Source of the DNA: Candidatus Spongiisociaceae bacterium | Lineage (GTDB): Bacteria > Actinomycetota > Acidimicrobiia > Spongiisociales > Spongiisociaceae | Direction of reading: 5' to 3' | NCBI GenBank assembly: GCA_965262915.1 | Contig: OZ253564.1 | Span: 224,001 to 288,000, forward strand | Length of the DNA stretch: 64,000 nucleotides | Shown: piece by piece, positions 16,856-52,779 of the stretch | How positions within the stretch are numbered: position 1 is the stretch's first letter | How the letters are laid out: every line of letters begins with the position of its first letter | Notes under the pieces: model-generated | What the model saw: the letters and a program-made list of their open reading frames with translations, nothing else | Database searches by the model: none | What the model was told of the DNA's origin: nothing | Made by a program: the position numbers and the translations under genes

Positions 16856-18288
16856 GGCTCTTCGGAAATGAGTGGGGAGTAGGGGATCTGCGGGGGGAGT
16901 GGTAATCCACTAGAAGTGATGGGGGGTCCTCCATAATCGGGTGTTGATAAGCGACATCCGAGGCAGGAGGACCCCTGTGGAAGCTGATCCTACGCGCATG
17001 TGCGAGAAGTTGGTAGGCCTAGGTGAGGTTGATCTGGTGGGGATCAACGACCCGGGCGAGGAGGCACCTTTGGAGGTGGTGATCGGGTCCCGCAAGGCCC
17101 GCCCGTTGTGTGTGGCATGTGGCGGGTCGGTGTGGTCGAAGGGCTATCGGACGGTAGTTTTGGTGGATTTACCGGCGTTCGGTCGGCCTGTGCGGCTGCG
17201 GTGGCGGAAACGGCGCTGGACGTGCCCGAACACCGACTGTGCGCTCAGGTCGTTCATCGAACAAGACCCCAAGATTGGTCCCCAACGGGCGTTGTTGACA
17301 TCGCGAGCGGCGAGGTGGGTGACCATCCAGGTCGGTCGGCGGGGCCGTCCGATCCAAGAGGTCGCCGCCGAGTTGGGTTGTGATTGGCATACGGTGAACA
17401 AAGAGGTTGGCCGCTGGGGCGAAGCGCTGCTGGAAGCAGACACCGATCGGATAGGCGAGGTCGGAGCTGTGGGCATCGACGAGACGTTGTTCTGGCGTCA
17501 GGGACAGTGGCGCACCAAAGTCTGGTGCACCTCTGTCGTCGACGTTGGCGGCCACCAGCTGATCGACATAGTCCCTGGTAGAACAGCAGAAAGCGCCGCA
17601 GCCTGGTTCCGATCCCAACCCCCCGAGTGGCTCGACGGGATCCGCTGGGCGGTGCTGGACATGTCCGGTCCTTACCGGAAGGCGTATAACCGGGTGTTAC
17701 CGAACGCTCTCCAAGTAGCAGACCCCTTCCACGTCATACGCCTCGCCAACCAGCGACTCGACGAAGTACGACGAAGAGTCCAAAACGAAACCCTGGGACA
17801 CAGAGGCCGCAAGGACGACCCGCTGTATCGGATACGGCGGCTCCTCACCGCTGCGCATGAGAGGATCAGCGACCGCGGCCAGGTCCGCTTGCGTGGTCTC
17901 CTCGATGCCGGTGACCCCTACGGGGAGGTACGCACAGCCTGGCACGCGAAGGAAACGGTCCGGGGCATCTACGGGATCGACACTCCGGTCCTTGCTCTCC
18001 GATACACCCTCCAGCTCGCAGACGACCTCCAGCACGAATCCTGCCCACCCGAGATCAACAAGCTCGGACGTACCATCGCCCGCTGGACCCCCCAGATCAC
18101 CAACTGGCACATCTCGAAGGTAACCAACGGACCCACCGAAGCCCTCAACAACCTCATAAAGCGGATCAAACGCATCGCGTTCGGGTTCCGCAACTTCGCG
18201 AACTACCGAATCCGCGCCCTTCTCTACGCCGGGAAACCCAACTGGGACCTCCTCGCCACCGTCACTCCCCACTGAAATCCGAAGAGCC
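16856..18288 (+). mobile_element. ISL3-family insertion sequence, complete
   Basis: IRs GGCTCTTCGGA..GTGGGGAGT at both ends; 8-bp TSD GCTTTAGG (16848-16855 and 18289-18296). Confidence 0.95.
16977..18275 (+). CDS. ISL3 transposase
   Basis: Zn finger CxxC..WTCPxxxC, GIDE, DMSGPY, DPFHV, TNGPTEALN..KRIAFGFRNF. Confidence 0.95.
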   Translation: MEADPTRMCEKLVGLGEVDLVGINDPGEEAPLEVVIGSRKARPLCVACGGSVWSKGYRTVVLVDLPAFGRPVRLRWRKRRWTCPNTDCALRSFIEQDPKIGPQRALLTSRAARWVTIQVGRRGRPIQEVAAELGCDWHTVNKEVGRWGEALLEADTDRIGEVGAVGIDETLFWRQGQWRTKVWCTSVVDVGGHQLIDIVPGRTAESAAAWFRSQPPEWLDGIRWAVLDMSGPYRKAYNRVLPNALQVADPFHVIRLANQRLDEVRRRVQNETLGHRGRKDDPLYRIRRLLTAAHERISDRGQVRLRGLLDAGDPYGEVRTAWHAKETVRGIYGIDTPVLALRYTLQLADDLQHESCPPEINKLGRTIARWTPQITNWHISKVTNGPTEALNNLIKRIKRIAFGFRNFANYRIRALLYAGKPNWDLLATVTPH

Positions 18289-48663: not shown

Positions 48664-48926
48664 GGCTGCGCGCAAACGTGGGTTTTGGCTGTGCTGGTCG
48701 GTGTGTGGGTCATGATGTTACGAGGATTGCTCGGGCTGCAAAGTTATCGGGGTTGGTGAACCCGTGAGCGACGCGTCGTAGGACTCGGGTGGAGGTTGTT
48801 GATCCCTTCGATGGGTCCGTTGGATGCTCGCCTGTTGCCGTGGTAGGCCAGGATTTCTTCTCCCCAGGCGATGATGGTGTCCACAATGTTGTGGTATTCG
48901 CGGTGTCTGTCCGGTGGCGAAGAGCC
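48664..48926 (-). mobile_element. Internally deleted ISL3-type remnant
   Basis: IR-like CGAAGAGCC at 48918-48926; encodes AWGEEILAYH..RASNGPIEGINNL. Confidence 0.6.
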
Positions 48927-49071
48927 GCTAAAGGGCCTCAACCTCAAAGCGGCTCTTCGGAAATGAGTGGGGAGTAGGGGATCTGCCAGGGGGAGTTGGA
49001 ATCCACCAGAAGTGAGGAGGGGTCCTCCATAATCGGGTGTTGGTAATGACATCCGAGGCAGGAGGACCCCT

Positions 49072-50370
49072 GTGGAAGCTGATCCTACGCGCATGTGCGA
49101 GAAGTTGGTAGGCCTAGGTGAGGTTGATCTGGTAGGGATCAACGACCCGGGCGAGGAGGCACCGTTGGAGGTGGTGATCCGGTCCCGCAAGCCCCGGCCG
49201 TTGTGTGAGTCCTGTGGCGGGTCGGTGTGGTCGAAGGGCTATCGGAGCGTGGTGTTGGTGGATTTACCGGCGTTCGGCCGGCCTGTGCGGCTGCGGTGGC
49301 GGAAACGGCGCTGGACATGTCCGAACCCGGACTGTGCGCTCAGATCGTTCATCGAACAAGACCCCAAGATTGGTCCCCAACGGGCGTTGTTGACATCCCG
49401 AGCGGCCCGGTGGGTGACCATCCAGGTGGGTGGGCGGGGCCGTTCGGTCGACGAGGTCGCCGCAGAACTTGGTTGTGATTGGCATACGGTGAACAAAGAG
49501 GTTGGCTGCTGGGGCGAAGCGCTGCTGGAAGCAGACACCGATCGGGTCGGGACCGTCGAAGCTGTGGGAGTGGACGAGACGTTGTTCTGGCGTCGGGGCC
49601 GTTGGCGTACCAAAGTCTGGTGCACCTCTGTCGTCGACGTTGGCGGCCACCAGCTGATCGACATAGTCCCTGGTAGAACAGCAGAAAGCGCCGCAGCCTG
49701 GTTCCGGTCACAACCCACCGAATGGTGTGAGGCTATCCGCTGGGCGGTGTTGGACATGTCCGGTTCGTATCGGAAGGCGTATGACAGGGTGCTACCGCAC
49801 GCGCTGCAGGTAGCGGACCCGTTCCACGTCATACGCCTCGCCAACCAGCGACTCGACGAGGTACGACGAAGAGTCCAAAACGAAACCCTCGGGCATCGAG
49901 GCCGCAAGGACGACCCGCTGTATCGGATACGCCGCCTCCTAACCGCCGCGCATGAGAGGATCAGCGACCGCGGTCAAACACGGCTGCGTGGTCTCCTCGA
50001 TGCTGGTGACCCCTACGGGGAAGTGCGCACAGCCTGGCACGCGAAAGAGACGGTACGAGGCATCTACGGGATCGAGAGTCCGGTCCTTGCTCTCCGATAC
50101 ACCCTCCAGCTCGCAGACGACCTCCAACACGAATCCTGCCCACCCGAGATCAACAAGCTAGGTCGCACCATCGCCCGCTGGACCCCCCAGATCACCAACT
50201 GGCACATCTCGAAGGTAACCAACGGACCCACCGAAGCCCTCAACAACCTCATCAAACGGATCAAACGAGCAGCGTTCGGGTTCCGCAACTTCGCGAACTA
50301 CCGAATCCGGGCCCTTCTCTACGCGGGGAAACCCAACTGGGACCTACTCCCATCGGTCACTCCCCACTGA
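49072..50370 (+). CDS. ISL3 transposase
   Basis: Near-identical to 16977-18275. Confidence 0.95.
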   Translation: MEADPTRMCEKLVGLGEVDLVGINDPGEEAPLEVVIRSRKPRPLCESCGGSVWSKGYRSVVLVDLPAFGRPVRLRWRKRRWTCPNPDCALRSFIEQDPKIGPQRALLTSRAARWVTIQVGGRGRSVDEVAAELGCDWHTVNKEVGCWGEALLEADTDRVGTVEAVGVDETLFWRRGRWRTKVWCTSVVDVGGHQLIDIVPGRTAESAAAWFRSQPTEWCEAIRWAVLDMSGSYRKAYDRVLPHALQVADPFHVIRLANQRLDEVRRRVQNETLGHRGRKDDPLYRIRRLLTAAHERISDRGQTRLRGLLDAGDPYGEVRTAWHAKETVRGIYGIESPVLALRYTLQLADDLQHESCPPEINKLGRTIARWTPQITNWHISKVTNGPTEALNNLIKRIKRAAFGFRNFANYRIRALLYAGKPNWDLLPSVTPH

Positions 50371-50384
50371 AATCCACTCATACT

Positions 50385-50580
50385 TAGAAGGTTCCTGGGC
50401 TGGGACGGGTCTGACCCAACTGAAATCTGGCTTTGTGCCTTTTCATCGATCTGTCGGCCTGTTCCCAGCTTGGGGGTGTAACCCCCTGGGCCGGGGCGGA
50501 TGTGACCTTATAGGAGCTTTGATCTTCCTCCACCGTGAGTGGCCTGTCCACCGCTTGCCGGGTCCGGGGATCGGAAATGA
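50385..50580 (+). ncRNA. Putative IS110 bridge RNA
   Basis: Two stem-flanked internal loops carrying ACTGAAATC/TCATCGAT (target) and ATAGGAGC/TGAGTGG (donor) segments; exact RNA ends unknown. Confidence 0.8.
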
Positions 50581-50607
50581 TTCTATCCCGCAGAGGAGGA
50601 AGGTGTC

Positions 50608-51837
50608 ATGGGAGAAGATGGTCGGGTTGTGTTCGGTGGGGTTGACACCCATCGTGATACCCATGTTGCGGCGGTGGTTGATGGCGCCGGTCGGGTCCTG
50701 GGAACGGCACCGTTCGGGGCTGATCCGGTCGGATATGAGCAGATGACCAGGTGGTCCGGAACCCACGGGCACCTGCTCCGGGTAGGAGTGGAGGGCACCG
50801 GCAGCTACGGCGCCGGCCTAGCCCGCTATCTGATGGCGGCGGGCATCGAGGTGGTAGAAGTGAACCGGCCGAACCGGCAGCTACGCCGCCAGCGGGGCGG
50901 CAAGACCGACAGTGTCGACGCCGAGGCGGCAGCTCGGGCAGCGGCCTCGGGGCAAGCTACCGCAGTTCCCAAATCTGGTGACGGACCGGTTGAGTGCATA
51001 CGGATGTTGTTGATGGCCCGCCGCTCGGCTACCAAGGCCCGCACCCAGGCCGCTAACCAGATACATTCTGTGACCGTTACCGCACCTGAGCCGCTAAAAC
51101 GCCAGCTCAGAGGTCTCAAGCTCAAGGCTCGGGTTCGGGTCTGTGCCCGCTGGCGTCCCGGTGAAGCACAGACCACAGCCGCGTACGCGAAGATGGCTCT
51201 ACGCTACCTGGCCCGCCGATACCAATCCCTCGACACAGAAATCGCAGAACTCAAGATCGAGATCCGTCGCCTCTGCGCCGAGGCTAACCCGGCTCTGTTA
51301 GCCGCCACCGGTGTGGGCCCTGACAGCGCTGCTGCGCTGCTAGTCGCTGCCGGCGACAACCCCGGGCGGATGAAATCGGAACGGTCCTTCGCTGCGCTCT
51401 GCGGCGCCAGCCCCGTCCAGGCATCATCGGGACAGACCATCCGGCACCGTCTCAACCGGGGCGGCAACCGCCAAGCCAACAGCGCACTCTGGCGGATCGC
51501 TACCACCCGGATACGCCACGACGCTGCCACCAAAGAATACGTGGCACGGCGCCAAGGGGAAGGAAAGAACCGAAAAGAGATCATCCGCTGCCTCAAGCGG
51601 CACATCGCCCGAGAGGTCTACCGCCTCTTGACCAACCCGCCACCAACCCCGAACTGCGCCCGGCTCCGCCGCCGACGTCAACACGCCAACATCACCGTCA
51701 CCCAGGCCGCCCAACAGCTCGGAACCCACCCCAGCCGCATCTCCGCACTCGAACGCGGCCGAGACCACAACCACCAACTCGCCAGCCGATACCAGACCTG
51801 GCTCCTAACCCACCAACCGGCCCCATCACCGACTTGA
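50608..51837 (+). CDS. IS110 recombinase/transposase with extra C-terminal XRE-like HTH
   Basis: GGVDTH, VEGTGSYG, KTDSVDA, GVGP, PVQASSG, RLNRGGNRQAN; tail LRRRRQHANITVTQAAQQLGTHPSRISALERG. Confidence 0.95.
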   Translation: MGEDGRVVFGGVDTHRDTHVAAVVDGAGRVLGTAPFGADPVGYEQMTRWSGTHGHLLRVGVEGTGSYGAGLARYLMAAGIEVVEVNRPNRQLRRQRGGKTDSVDAEAAARAAASGQATAVPKSGDGPVECIRMLLMARRSATKARTQAANQIHSVTVTAPEPLKRQLRGLKLKARVRVCARWRPGEAQTTAAYAKMALRYLARRYQSLDTEIAELKIEIRRLCAEANPALLAATGVGPDSAAALLVAAGDNPGRMKSERSFAALCGASPVQASSGQTIRHRLNRGGNRQANSALWRIATTRIRHDAATKEYVARRQGEGKNRKEIIRCLKRHIAREVYRLLTNPPPTPNCARLRRRRQHANITVTQAAQQLGTHPSRISALERGRDHNHQLASRYQTWLLTHQPAPSPT

Positions 51838-51869
51838 CAACCATAGGAGCATCGATGAGCCCTCAAAGC

Positions 51870-52596
51870 TCGGGTCAAGATCTGCGCGCGGTTCCGACCC
51901 GGCACAGACCACACCACCACCGCCCACGCGAAGGGTGCTCTGCGGCACCTGGTCCGCAGATACCAGACGCTCACTGCTGAGATCACCGAACTCGACACAC
52001 AGATCACAGATCTCTGCGCGAAAGCGAACCCGGCGCTTTTGGCAGCTCGCGGGGTCGGCCCTGACACAGCAGCGGCTCTCCTCGTGGCGGCAGGCGACAA
52101 CCCCCAGCGCATGAACTCAGCCACAGCCTTCGCTGCCCTAATGTGGTTCCAGCCCCGTCCCCGCATCATCGGGGAGAACAGTCCGGCATCGTCTCAACCG
52201 GGGAGGCAACCGCAAAACCAACAACGCTCTGTGGCCGATGCGCTACCACCCGGATACACAACGACGCCCGCACCCAAGCCTATGTAGCCAAACGAGAAGC
52301 GAAGGCAAGAACCGTAAAGAGATCATCCGCTGCCTCAAGTGGCACATCGCCCGAGAAGTCTACCGGCTGCTGCCCAACCCGCCCCCAACCCCGAACTGCG
52401 CCCGCCTACACGCCCGCCGCCGGGCAAGCCAACATCACTATCACCCAGGCCGCCCAACACCTCGGAACCCGCCCGGCCCGTATCTCAGAACTCGAACTCG
52501 GACGCAACCACAACCACCAGCTAGCAACCCAATACCAGAACTGGCTCCGCACCCGCCAACCGGCCCCGTCCCCGATTTGACAACCATAGGAGCATC
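51870..52596 (+). pseudogene. Degenerate 3' half of a related IS110 (a 24-bp piece lies at 48927-48950)
   Basis: Frameshifted homologue of 51120-51853 with the same end TTGACAACCATAGGAGCATC followed by GATGAGCC. Confidence 0.88.
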
Positions 52597-52779
52597 GATG
52601 AGCCCCATTAGTTACACTGGCCAGAGTTAGCGTTCTCATAAACAGCTATCTACCTGGGATAACAGGAAAACGGGCCCACAACTGTCGGTAAATGGGGATT
52701 ACAAACTTGTCTAGTCAAGTATGTAATCCCCTTCCTTTGCTCAGTCGTTCCGTCGGGTGTGTTCGACCAGACCTGCCGC

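What the first reader, a model, noticed from the sequence alone, without database searches (positions are those of the whole stretch)
50366..51861. IS110 bridge RNA readable from sequence and programmed against the ISL3 terminal repeat
Seen: the left junction is ACTGAAATC-CACTCA and the right is ATAGGAGC-ATC-GATGAGCC. In the non-coding left end, one stem (GCTGGGACGGGTCTGAC / GTCGGCCTGTTCCCAGC) encloses ACTGAAATC (50419-50427, equal to the left target) and TCATCGAT (50443-50450, reverse complement of core plus right target). A second loop holds ATAGGAGC (50510-50517, the element right end) and TGAGTGG (50536-50542, reverse complement of the left end). Established: this is the target-loop/donor-loop layout of IS110 bridge RNAs. 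Inference: an RNA-guided recombinase with a TC/ATC core that parasitises and immobilises ISL3, and a candidate programmable tool.
Basis: partly seen in the sequence, partly recalled or inferred. Interest (0 to 1): 0.8.

Follow-up and report, generated by a model that had tools for sequence, protein, structure and literature searches.

The report
RNA-guided IS110 element targeting ISL3 ends
This is a jumping gene of the IS110 family whose own guide RNA is written to insert into the end of a second jumping gene (ISL3); it is a new example of a mechanism described in 2024, and sister copies in the same genome show the guide being naturally rewritten.

Summary
Window 50375-51853 (+) is a 1479-bp IS110-group element. 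It has a 233-nt non-coding left end, then a 409-aa DEDD/Tnp recombinase. It splits the right inverted repeat (IRR) of an ISL3 element, 8 nt from the tip.

The bridge-RNA reading is strongly supported. The same genome holds 25 end-defined relatives with 7 different target-loop guide pairs. In each, both guide segments track that element's own flanks: 13-14 of 14 positions cognate against a mean of 6.3 non-cognate, and 1 of 5040 permutations reaches the observed total.

Sixteen of 17 copies carrying the window's guides sit in ISL3 IRRs, and 16 of 33 ISL3 right ends are occupied.

- **Core:** it is not a shared TC/ATC. Donor and the common 18-nt empty site share one C.
- **"Immobilises ISL3":** plausible but shown only indirectly. 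Occupied ISL3 copies have broken transposase frames more often (8/12 against 1/16).

This is a new member of a known kind. Notable extras are four guide sets aimed at the ends of two ISL3-family elements, a C-terminal HTH tail and a one-nucleotide register slip.

The parts
50375..51853 (+). IS110-group element, 1479 bp. One of its two terminal Cs (50375 or 51853) is target-derived, so the net insert is 1478 bp.
   Evidence: Ends CACTCATA... and ...ATAGGAGCATC are shared by 25 end-defined copies in the genome. The empty ISL3 site defines the single-C overlap.
50375..50607 (+). Non-coding left end encoding the bridge RNA. The likely RNA runs from about 50391 to about 50560.
   Evidence: 233 nt lie before the ATG against 16 nt after the stop. 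The -10 box is at 50379-50384. RNA-library contigs end at 50516, 50517 and 50559. The RNA ends are inferred, not mapped.
50379..50384 (+). -10 half (CATACT; CATAAT in sister copies) of a promoter that is split between the two ends of the element.
   Evidence: It sits at the same position in 8 of 8 group representatives. No complete + strand promoter is found in the integrated state.
51834..51839 (+). -35 half (TTGACA) of the split promoter, ending 14 nt before the right end. Joining the ends gives a 17-nt spacer (18 if both Cs are kept).
   Evidence: The published IS621 circle-junction promoter is the precedent (PMC11208160 passages).
50399..50415 (+). 5' arm of the target-binding-loop stem.
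   Evidence: a 13-pair helix with 96.9% of cells paired and 2 pairs with compensatory changes.
50419..50427 (+). Left target guide (LTG) ACTGAAATC, same-sense with the 9 nt left of the insertion.
   Evidence: It covaries with the left flank in 7 groups.
50429..50439 (+). Small hairpin (GGC...GCC) capping the target-binding loop.
   Evidence: Invariant in 10 of 10 aligned sequences.
50443..50450 (+). Right target guide (RTG) TCATCGAT. The first 5 nt are antisense to the right flank GATGA. The constant GAU is antisense to the donor's last three bases, ATC, so it plays a core plus handshake role.
   Evidence: The handshake concept is from Hiraizumi 2024 (PMC11208158 passages).
50453..50469 (+). 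3' arm of the target-binding-loop stem.
50510..50517 (+). Left donor guide (LDG) ATAGGAGC, same-sense with the right end of the element.
   Evidence: Its first base is G in groups E2 and E3, where the right end also reads GTAGGAGC.
50536..50542 (+). Right donor guide (RDG) TGAGTGG, antisense to the left junction C-CACTCA. Its last base tracks the target base 5' of the crossover C.
   Evidence: that base is G where the target base is C, and U where it is A, in 5 of 7 groups. Related elements in other genomes behave the same way.
50608..51837 (+). Recombinase gene, 409 aa. It has a DEDD RuvC-like domain (D13, E62, D101, D104 by my reading), a Tnp domain (S274-G275) and a C-terminal XRE-type HTH (aa 351-386, nt 51658-51765).
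   Evidence: Pfam PF01548 2e-24, PF02371 3.8e-19, PF13560 2.8e-07. PDB ISCro4 2.4e-13 and IS621 1.5e-10, both matched only up to residue 346.
51843..51853 (+). Left donor half at the right end of the element (ATAGGAGCATC).
48951..50374 (+). Host ISL3 element, from the left inverted repeat (starts GGCTCTTCGG) to the inner part of the right repeat. The transposase gene is 49072-50370.
   Evidence: Pfam DDE_Tnp_ISL3 9.1e-58. 91% identical to the intact ISL3 at window 16856-18288.
51854..51861 (+). Outer 8 nt (GATGAGCC) of the split ISL3 right inverted repeat.
48943..48950 (.). Left copy of the 8-bp ISL3 target duplication CTCAAAGC. The right copy is at 51862-51869.
51862..52596 (+). 3' part of an older IS110 copy (77% identical) that the ISL3 interrupted. 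A 26-nt piece lies at 48925-48950.
   Evidence: plus the translation read.
52597..52604 (+). A second ISL3 right-repeat tip (GATGAGCC), directly after the older IS110's right end. The older copy had hit the same kind of site.

Best explanation
Window 50375-51853 is an intact IS110-group insertion sequence. It is moved by a DEDD/serine recombinase that a bridge RNA, encoded in the element's 233-nt left end, guides to its target.

The RNA carries two internal loops.
- **Target loop.** It reads the ISL3 right inverted repeat. The LTG (ACUGAAAUC) pairs with the bottom strand left of the crossover. The RTG (UCAUC, then the constant GAU) pairs with the top strand right of it.
- **Donor loop.** It reads the element's own joined ends. 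The LDG (AUAGGAGC) reads the right end and the RDG (UGAGUGG) reads the left end.

Insertion takes place 8 nt from the tip of the ISL3 repeat, always in one orientation. It separates the tip from the rest of the repeat, which most likely disables that ISL3 copy.

The promoter is split: -35 in the right end, -10 in the left end. Strong RNA and recombinase expression is therefore expected only from the excised, joined form.

Shown here:
- the anatomy of the element;
- protein family membership;
- guide/flank covariation;
- site preference;
- recent independent insertions.

Inferred:
- that the guide acts as RNA;
- the circular intermediate;
- the effect on ISL3.

Detail of the crossover (inferred, about 0.65). 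Donor and the common 18-nt empty site share only one C. The base 5' of that C stays with its own left flank at both junctions. This is what transfer of the top strand alone would give.
For: **Anatomy and family**
- Searches give the layout and the Pfam domains.
- The protein matches solved IS621 and ISCro4 recombinases.
- The catalytic D, E, D, D and S-G motifs are present. I read the residue numbers from the sequence.

**Motifs and fold**
- All four guide strings are at the stated places.
- The target-loop stem and cap are predicted for the single sequence and for 10 diverged relatives.
- 94.3% of cells pair, against 39-55% when partners are slid.

**Covariation**
- 25 end-defined copies in the genome give 12 distinct guide-plus-flank combinations and 7 guide pairs.
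- Cognate guide-to-flank matches are 14, 14, 14, 14, 14, 13 and 14 of 14. Non-cognate matches average 6.31, with a maximum of 10.
- Only the identity permutation, 1 of 5040, reaches the observed total.
- Donor side: the first LDG base and the matching right-end base are both G in groups E2 and E3, and both A elsewhere.
- My motif scan found a target loop in 8 of 30 loci from other genomes. Those elements show the same cognate matches.

**Site preference**
- 16 of 17 copies with the window's guides lie in ISL3 right repeats.
- 16 of 33 ISL3 right ends are occupied.
- 10 occupied copies keep a perfect 8-bp ISL3 duplication across the whole composite.

**Recent, independent movement**
- IS110 copies are 99-100% identical to each other while their host ISL3 bodies are 88-98% identical. 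One pair is 100% against 93.8%.

**Strand logic and split promoter**
- Both agree with the published system (PMC11208160 section 7 and passages; PMC11208158 passages).
- The split promoter sits at the same position in 8 of 8 group representatives.

**RNA hint**
- Contigs from three metatranscriptome libraries cover the end of ISL3 plus the left end (50300/50313/50367 to 50516/50517/50559).
- They cover the recombinase gene only as short pieces (33-38 nt, plus one 173-nt contig at 51429-51600 in X18).

**Crossover**
- Empty sites for groups A, B, C, D and E3 show a one-C overlap.
- An occupied ISL3 is 100% identical over 1424 nt to 10 empty copies that all carry the 18-nt site.
- 4 of 4 empty sites in three other genomes are the 18-nt form.
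Against: - No direct proof that the left end acts as RNA. The RNA evidence is assembled contigs from other samples, 90-96% alike, with no strand or end information. DNA carry-over is possible.
- No circle junction was seen. There was none among the 26 matches of a metagenome scan, all in unrelated contexts. There was no back-joint in about 2% of one raw DNA run.
- No Rfam family matches the region. I do not know whether Rfam holds a bridge-RNA model.
- The donor-loop fold is weakly supported. Its outer stem is only 4 pairs, and RNAalifold otherwise pairs the guides themselves.
- One copy with the window's guides (genome 3663632-3665110) sits at a site its own guides match at only 6 of 14 positions.
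- One ISL3 right repeat of 17 nt matches both guides perfectly and contiguously, yet it is empty.
- The 9-nt LTG match ends one base before the shared C in groups A, C and E2, but includes it in B, D, E1 and E3. The published geometry does not predict this.
- The link between occupation and broken ISL3 genes could simply reflect age.
Confidence: 0.9

Rival explanations
1. Same RNA-guided element, but with the canonical published geometry. There is a true 2-nt TC core shared by donor and target. The real target is the 17-nt form of the ISL3 right repeat (ACTGAAA-TC-GATGAGCC). The left end of the element begins one C earlier (CACTCA).
For: - Both guides match the 17-nt form perfectly and with the overlap seen for IS621: LTG 9 of 9, RTG 8 of 8, sharing ATC.
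- One such site exists in the genome.
- Group E3 fits this geometry exactly.
- Both junctions of the window element are compatible with it.
Against: - 16 of 17 empty ISL3 right repeats here are the 18-nt form, and so are 4 of 4 in three other genomes.
- Occupied copies occur in at least 5 ISL3 sequence variants. One is 100% identical over 1424 nt to 10 empty 18-nt copies. Each would therefore need its own prior 1-nt deletion.
- Group C shows the same extra C in 4 of 4 empty sites.
- The only 17-nt site is unoccupied.
Confidence: 0.15
2. The ISL3 end is only a neutral, multi-copy landing pad. The insertion has no consequence for ISL3, and the ISL3+IS110 composite may still move, so 'parasitises and immobilises' overstates the relation.
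For: - IS110-family elements are known to favour repeated, harmless sites such as REP sequences and transposon ends (reference titles seen; ISPpu9 abstract).
- 4 of 12 occupied ISL3 copies still have a full-length transposase frame.
Against: - The insert puts 1.48 kb between the outer 8 nt of the repeat and the rest.
- No two composites are near-identical in both parts. The best pair is 98.5% for ISL3 and 99.5% for IS110, so there is no sign of the composite moving as a unit.
- Occupied copies have broken transposase frames in 8 of 12 cases, against 1 of 16 for empty ones (Fisher p = 0.0012).
- The 10 identical copies of the currently active ISL3 clone are all empty.
Confidence: 0.2
3. Specificity is set by protein or by DNA, not by an RNA guide. 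For example, the C-terminal HTH reads the target, or the left-end motifs act as DNA sites that synapse with the target.
For: - The clade has an extra XRE-type HTH that IS621 and ISCro4 lack.
- Covariation alone cannot tell RNA from single-stranded DNA.
Against: - Seven different targets are served by recombinases that all keep the same HTH tail. The bases that change are exactly the two loop segments.
- The two segments match opposite strands of the target on either side of a hairpin, as in the solved RNA-guided complexes.
- The stem around them keeps pairing through compensatory changes.
- The protein is homologous to recombinases shown to need the RNA.
Confidence: 0.03
4. The matches between loops and flanks arise by chance, or are left over from nested insertions.
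For: The region is a nest of insertion sequences, and short repeats abound.
Against: - Four separate exact matches of 7-9 nt occur in 233 nt, in the expected order and strands.
- They are repeated with different sequences in six other groups.
Confidence: 0.01

Closest known systems
IS621 of Escherichia coli (IS110 group), bridge RNA plus recombinase (Durrant et al. 2024, PMC11208160; Hiraizumi et al. 2024, PMC11208158)
   Same: - Domain order: DEDD, then Tnp with the catalytic Ser.
- A long left end encodes the RNA.
- The target loop comes first and the donor loop second.
- LTG and LDG are same-sense; RTG and RDG are antisense.
- The bases 3' of the RTG and RDG fit the other DNA (handshake).
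- The promoter is split between the two ends.
- The last core base is near-invariant and the first is variable.
   Different: - Sequence similarity is low (phmmer E = 1.5e-10).
- The constant crossover base is C, not T.
- Donor and the usual target share only that one base.
- The LTG register differs by one base between sister groups.
- Groups A-D have no separate 5' stem-loop; groups E1-E3 carry an extra stretch of about 50 nt there.
- The recombinase has an extra tail of about 60 aa containing an HTH.
- The target is the end of another insertion sequence, not a REP-like site.
ISCro4 transposase (PDB 9t56)
   Same: It is the best solved-structure relative (E = 2.4e-13). Both catalytic domains align.
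   Different: The chain ends at the equivalent of residue 346 or so, so it has no HTH tail. I read nothing about its RNA or target.
[quoted passage not shown]
   Same: A DEDD-family element that specifically lands inside the terminal repeat of another transposable element, in one orientation.
   Different: They belong to the IS1111 group, where the guide lies in the long right end and there are sub-terminal inverted repeats. Here the right end is 16 nt and the guide lies in the left end. The victim is an ISL3-family insertion sequence, not a Tn3-family transposon.
CazIS110-1 (preprint 10.1101/2025.10.25.684509) and IS621 in cell-free reactions (preprint 10.64898/2026.08.31.748434); abstracts only read
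   Same: They report copy-out and insertion mainly of the top strand. The junctions here fit that: the target's base is kept at the left junction and the donor's T at the right junction, in all 7 groups.
   Different: Those are experiments on other elements. Here the agreement is only an inference from natural junction sequences.
ISPpu9 / ISPpu10 of Pseudomonas putida (abstracts seen)
   Same: IS110-family elements confined to one repeated sequence present in many copies in the genome.
   Different: Their targets are REP-type intergenic repeats. No family of sister elements retargeted to several sites in one genome is described in what I read.

Membership tests
IS110-group bridge-RNA insertion sequence | Recombinase with an N-terminal DEDD RuvC-like domain | tested here: met
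   PF01548, E = 2e-24, residues 11-155. D13, E62, D101 and D104 were read from the translation. The motif positions are my own reading, not a structural alignment.
IS110-group bridge-RNA insertion sequence | C-terminal Tnp domain with the catalytic Ser-Gly | tested here: met
   PF02371, E = 3.8e-19. In the alignment to ISCro4, query S274-G275 falls on that protein's S-G.
IS110-group bridge-RNA insertion sequence | Long non-coding left end upstream of the gene and a short right end | tested here: met
   233 nt against 16 nt. The published rule is in PMC11208160 section 12.
IS110-group bridge-RNA insertion sequence | No terminal inverted repeats and no multi-base target duplication | tested here: met
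   The ends are CACTCATA... and ...ATAGGAGCATC. Comparison with empty sites shows a one-base overlap.
IS110-group bridge-RNA insertion sequence | Left-end RNA with a target-binding internal loop closed by a conserved stem and capped by a hairpin | tested here: met
   13-pair stem, 96.9% of cells paired, 2 compensatory pairs, invariant cap.
IS110-group bridge-RNA insertion sequence | A second, donor-binding internal loop | tested here: inconclusive
   The guides are present and correctly ordered. A 4-pair outer stem is kept in 90% of cells. The inner fold is not resolved, because RNAalifold pairs the guides themselves.
IS110-group bridge-RNA insertion sequence | Target guides covary with the flanks: LTG same-sense on the left, RTG antisense on the right | tested here: met
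   7 guide pairs; 13-14 of 14 cognate against a non-cognate mean of 6.31; 1 of 5040 permutations reaches the observed total. Elements from other genomes agree.
IS110-group bridge-RNA insertion sequence | Donor guides match the element's own right and left ends | tested here: met
   8 of 8 and 7 of 7 matches. The first LDG base and the matching right-end base change together in groups E2 and E3.
IS110-group bridge-RNA insertion sequence | A core dinucleotide identical in donor and target | tested here: not met
   Only one C is shared with the common empty site. The base before it differs: T in the donor; C, A or T in the targets. For IS621 the first core base is also reported as loosely constrained, so this is a difference of degree.
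IS110-group bridge-RNA insertion sequence | A promoter rebuilt when the two ends are joined | tested here: met
   By sequence only. A TTGACA-type hexamer ends 14 nt before the right end, and a CATAAT-type hexamer starts at left-end base 5, in 8 of 8 representatives. No + strand promoter is found in the integrated state.
IS110-group bridge-RNA insertion sequence | A circular excised intermediate | tested here: inconclusive
   Not found in a metagenome scan (26 chance matches) or in about 2% of one raw DNA run. Neither is a sensitive test.
IS110-group bridge-RNA insertion sequence | The RNA is made and is needed for recombination | not testable with these tools
   The only hint is that metatranscriptome contigs from three libraries cover the left end, while the recombinase gene is covered only by short pieces.
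IS1111 group | Guide RNA in a long right end, with sub-terminal inverted repeats of 7-17 bp | tested here: not met
   The right end is 16 nt and holds no guide. All four guides are in the left end. The definition is from PMC11208160 section 12.

The most novel reading that the evidence does not exclude
This is one lineage of a radiating, HTH-bearing IS110 clade in Acidimicrobiia. Its bridge RNAs are repeatedly rewritten to strike the termini of co-resident insertion sequences.

Targets seen or indicated:
- the right repeat of one ISL3 family;
- both repeats and both sub-terminal regions of a second ISL3 family;
- in a relative, the promoter-bearing right end of IS110 itself.

All lineages keep the same donor arms, so guides can act in trans on each other's circles. 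One copy with the window's guides sits at a site fitting another group's guides at 12 of 14 positions.

The natural junctions record insertion by top-strand transfer that needs only one base shared between donor and target, with a one-base slip allowed in the left guide.
Probability: 0.4. Interest if true: 0.7.

Novelty: new member of a known kind. Interest (0 to 1): 0.55.

Why it matters
Bridge recombinases are being developed as programmable DNA-insertion tools, and most of what is known comes from IS621 and a few relatives. This genome offers a natural experiment. One scaffold carries seven or eight guide specificities, with matched empty and occupied sites for most of them.

That material could give:
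- reprogramming rules;
- the tolerated mismatches;
- a view of what happens at the crossover in vivo (one shared base, junction asymmetry, a register slip).

It also shows an ecological role: RNA-guided insertion sequences that live in, and probably disable, the ends of other insertion sequences. Half of one ISL3 family's copies in the genome are hit.

The extra HTH tail and the high-GC actinobacterial origin may interest people screening orthologues. None of this changes the known mechanism in kind.

Tried and rejected
**Searches that found nothing**
- Rfam scan of 50200-52000 at E up to 1: no match. This says nothing either way, because I do not know whether Rfam holds a bridge-RNA family.
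- Metagenome scan for the predicted joined ends: 26 matches, all in unrelated, mostly AT-rich contexts with no -35 box before and no loop scaffold after. They are chance hits, so a circle or tandem junction was not found.
- Raw Hi-C DNA run X22, about 2% read: no back-joint across the ends. This is too shallow, and too chimeric by design, to count against a circle.
- Integrated-state promoter scan: only one minus-strand consensus match, at 50609-50580. It was not followed up.

**Folds set aside**
- RNAalifold on the whole left end paired the first 7 bases with the RDG. I rejected this as a DNA-level consequence of the donor match, because those bases lie upstream of the predicted -10 box. I refolded from base 14.
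- The single-sequence fold energy is not unusual (z = -1.49). The argument therefore rests on covariation, not on energy.

**Ideas considered and rejected**
- *ISL3+IS110 composites spread as units.* No pair of composites is near-identical in both parts.
- *The 17-nt ISL3 site is the real target.* Kept as a rival at 0.15.

**Literature**
- Two searches found no paper that links an IS110-group element to an ISL3 repeat. This covers only the held library.

- I made no structure or complex prediction, because the family assignment did not need one.
- The motif scan recognised a target loop in only 8 of 30 loci from other genomes. The other 22 (more distant, truncated or differently spelled) were not examined further.

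Full report
**What is in the sequence**

The region 50375-51853 (+) is a 1479-bp unit.
- It starts CACTCATA and ends ATAGGAGCATC.
- It has 233 non-coding bases, then a 409-aa open frame (50608-51837) with a GGAGGAAGG ribosome site, then 16 bases.
- The protein carries the two Pfam domains of IS110-family recombinases (PF01548, 2e-24; PF02371, 3.8e-19). It also has a C-terminal XRE-type helix-turn-helix (PF13560, 2.8e-07, residues 351-386).
- Its closest solved relatives are the ISCro4 and IS621 recombinases (E = 2.4e-13 and 1.5e-10). Both align only up to residue 346.
- The D, E, D, D and Ser-Gly catalytic motifs are present at D13, E62, D101, D104 and S274-G275. These positions are my reading of the translation and of the alignment.

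**Surroundings**

The unit splits the right inverted repeat (IRR) of an ISL3 element.
- The ISL3 runs 48951-50374 plus 51854-51861. Its transposase gene is 49072-50370 (PF01610, 9.1e-58).
- It is flanked by an 8-bp duplication, CTCAAAGC.
- This ISL3 had itself landed in an older IS110 relative. That relative's 3' part (77% identical) follows at 51862-52596.
- The older copy's own right end is again followed by an ISL3 repeat tip, at 52597-52604.
- To the left lies a fragment of a second ISL3-family element, at 48666-48924.

The finding therefore sits in a nest in which IS110 and ISL3 elements have hit each other in turn.

**The decisive test: covariation inside one genome**

The window's genome (5.06 Mb, one contig) holds 43 BLAST pieces of this element. 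Twenty-five of these are copies with both ends defined.

The left ends align on a constant scaffold in which only a few short segments vary. There are seven guide pairs. In every group the 9-nt segment equals the bases left of that element, and the 5-nt variable part of the second segment is the reverse complement of the bases to its right.
- Scored over 14 positions, cognate pairs give 14, 14, 14, 14, 14, 13 and 14.
- The 42 non-cognate pairings average 6.31, with a maximum of 10.
- Only 1 of 5040 permutations, the true one, reaches the observed total.

On the donor side the guides are nearly constant, as are the element ends. Where the right end reads GTAGGAGC instead of ATAGGAGC (groups E2, E3), the donor guide changes with it.

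My motif scan recognised a target loop in 8 of 30 loci from other genomes (Acidimicrobiia assemblies, several from sponges). These show the same cognate matches: 8-9 of 9 on the left and 3-5 of 5 on the right. One left junction is cut by a contig end, and one right junction is not in the locus.

**Fold**
- This gives an internal loop with the LTG on the 5' side, a GGC/GCC-capped hairpin, and the RTG on the 3' side.
- With four helices written by hand, 94.3% of cells pair, against 39-55% when partners are slid. Four pairs show changes on both sides. The structure was derived from the same alignment, so this control is lenient.
- The donor loop is less well defined: a 4-pair outer stem, with the inner part unresolved.
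- Rfam gives no match.

**Agreement with the known system**

Durrant et al. 2024 (section 7 and passages) state three things:
- IS110-group elements carry the RNA in a long left end;
- joining the ends rebuilds a sigma-70 promoter.

All three hold here. A TTGACA-type hexamer ends 14 nt before the right end, and a CATACT/CATAAT hexamer starts at base 5 of the left end, in 8 of 8 group representatives. This gives a 17-nt spacer once the ends are joined through one C. The integrated copy has no + strand promoter by the consensus scan.

Hiraizumi et al. 2024 (passages) describe handshake bases 3' of the RTG and RDG that fit the other DNA after strand exchange. Two features here match that.
- The constant GAU after the variable RTG part is antisense to the donor's constant last three bases.
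- The base after UGAGUG in the RDG is G where the target base before the crossover is C (groups A and C). It is U where that base is A (B, D, E1, and the group-C relatives in other genomes). That is 5 of 7 groups.

**Target choice**
- Sixteen of the 17 copies with the window's guides lie in ISL3 right repeats, all in the same orientation.
- Of 33 ISL3 right ends, 16 are occupied, 16 are empty with an 18-nt site, and one is empty with a 17-nt site.
- Ten occupied copies keep a perfect ISL3 duplication across the composite.
- IS110 inserts are far more alike than their hosts. One pair is 100% identical over 1476 bp, in ISL3 bodies that are 93.8% identical. The insertions are therefore recent and independent.

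**The crossover**
- The empty site reads ...ACTGAAATCCGA(T/A)GAGCC. The occupied site reads ...ACTGAAATC + CACTCA...GCATC + GA(T/A)GAGCC. Only one C is common to donor and target.
- The same holds for groups B, C, D and E3, for which empty sites exist.
- An occupied ISL3 is identical over 1424 nt to ten empty copies that all carry the 18-nt site.
- Three other genomes have only the 18-nt form, in 4 of 4 empty sites.
- The base before the shared C is the target's at the left junction and the donor's T at the right junction, in all groups.

Two preprints report insertion mainly of the top strand (abstracts only). That would produce exactly this pattern. I offer the link as an inference.

One feature is unexplained. 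In groups A, C and E2 the 9-nt LTG match stops one base before the shared C, whereas in B, D, E1 and E3 it includes that C. The loop lengths are identical in both sets.

**Effect on ISL3**
- The insert parts the outer 8 nt of the repeat from the rest.
- Occupied copies have broken transposase frames in 8 of 12 cases, against 1 of 16 for empty ones (Fisher p = 0.0012).
- The ten identical copies of the apparently active ISL3 clone are all empty.
- No composite appears to have moved as a unit.

This fits disabling, but it could also reflect age. It is not a test.

**Expression**

Assembled contigs from three metatranscriptome libraries run from the end of the ISL3 gene into the left end: 50300-50516, 50313-50517 and 50367-50559. 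In these libraries the recombinase gene is covered only by short pieces (33-38 nt), plus one 173-nt contig at 51429-51600 in X18.

The contigs are 90-96% alike to the window and come from other samples. They carry no strand or end information, and DNA may be present in the libraries. I count this as a hint that the left end is present in RNA, possibly through read-through from ISL3.

**Wider pattern**
- Group B's site lies inside both 19-bp terminal repeats of a second ISL3-family element, with a 398-aa transposase (PF01610, 1.3e-57).
- The sites of groups D and E3 lie just inside its two ends.
- Group C's site is a palindromic repeat.
- A target-loop remnant in this genome, and a full element in another genome (L042), carry guides that fit the right end of IS110 itself.
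- One copy with the window's guides sits at a site they match at 6 of 14 positions, while group E1's guides match it at 12 of 14. All groups share the donor arms, so a guide acting in trans is a plausible cause.

**Verdict**

This is a genuine IS110-group bridge-RNA element aimed at the ISL3 right repeat (confidence 0.9). It is a new member of a known kind.

Noticed in passing
window 48925-48950 and 51862-52604: The ISL3 that hosts the element is itself inserted, with an 8-bp duplication, into an older and diverged IS110 copy. That copy's right end abuts another ISL3 repeat tip. The two families have therefore hit each other in turn at this locus.
   Followed up: partly
window 51658-51765 (protein residues 351-386): The recombinase has a C-terminal XRE-type helix-turn-helix.
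- Pfam finds it in 4 of 5 other clade members tested and in 0 of 3 relatives at 52-56% identity.
- By my count, about 67 of the 120 best database relatives carry the annotation.
- The solved IS621 and ISCro4 chains lack it.
Its role is unknown.
   Followed up: partly
genome G000:C1:3663632-3665110 (-), locus L005: A copy carrying the window's guides sits at a non-ISL3 site. Its own guides match that site at 6 of 14 positions, while the guides of sister group E1 match it at 12 of 14. A bridge RNA, or a single loop, may have acted in trans on another element's circle.
   Followed up: partly
genome G000:C1 near 4427096 (-); locus L042 from position 2482: A target-loop remnant carries guides (TTGACAAAC / TCTAT) that fit the right end of the IS110 family itself. 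In L042 a full element sits inside the right end of another IS110 copy, between its -35 box and its donor arm.
   Followed up: partly
locus L087 268-1611 (genome 689267-690610); window 48666-48924: A second ISL3-family element of 1344 bp has 19-bp terminal repeats and a 398-aa transposase. Its repeats hold the site of guide group B, and its two sub-terminal regions hold the sites of groups D and E3. The window carries a 259-bp fragment of it with unoccupied B-like and D-like sites.
   Followed up: partly
genome G000:C1 near 306078 (-): This is the only ISL3 right repeat of 17 nt, one C short. It matches both guides perfectly yet is empty, and its flanking duplication is imperfect (6 of 8). It could be an excision scar or a deletion variant.
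   Followed up: no
window 16856-18288: An intact ISL3 with an empty 18-nt right repeat and a perfect duplication, GCTTTAGG. Elsewhere in the genome 10 empty copies are 100% identical over 1424 nt, which points to a currently active clone.
   Followed up: yes
window 48964-48970: The ISL3 left repeat contains TGAGTGG, the same 7 bases as the donor guide RDG. Its reverse complement therefore equals the first bases of the IS110 left junction. This is probably chance, because the IS110 end is the same in groups that do not target this ISL3.
   Followed up: no
window 50388-50397 with 50511-50520: In the single-sequence fold, the leader AAGGUUCCU pairs with the donor guide region AGGAGCUUU. It could mask the donor guide, or it could be chance. 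The alignment fold did not predict it.
   Followed up: no
genome G000:C1:4464053-4466853: One copy is 1567 bp long because about 85 bp near its 3' end is duplicated. It is followed by an ISL3 tip and then by the 3' part of another IS110 copy. This is the same kind of nest as in the window.
   Followed up: no
window 50580-50609 (-): A minus-strand promoter-like match (ATGACA, 18 nt, TAGAAT; 10 of 12) overlaps the start of the recombinase gene. It could drive an antisense RNA, or it could be chance.
   Followed up: no
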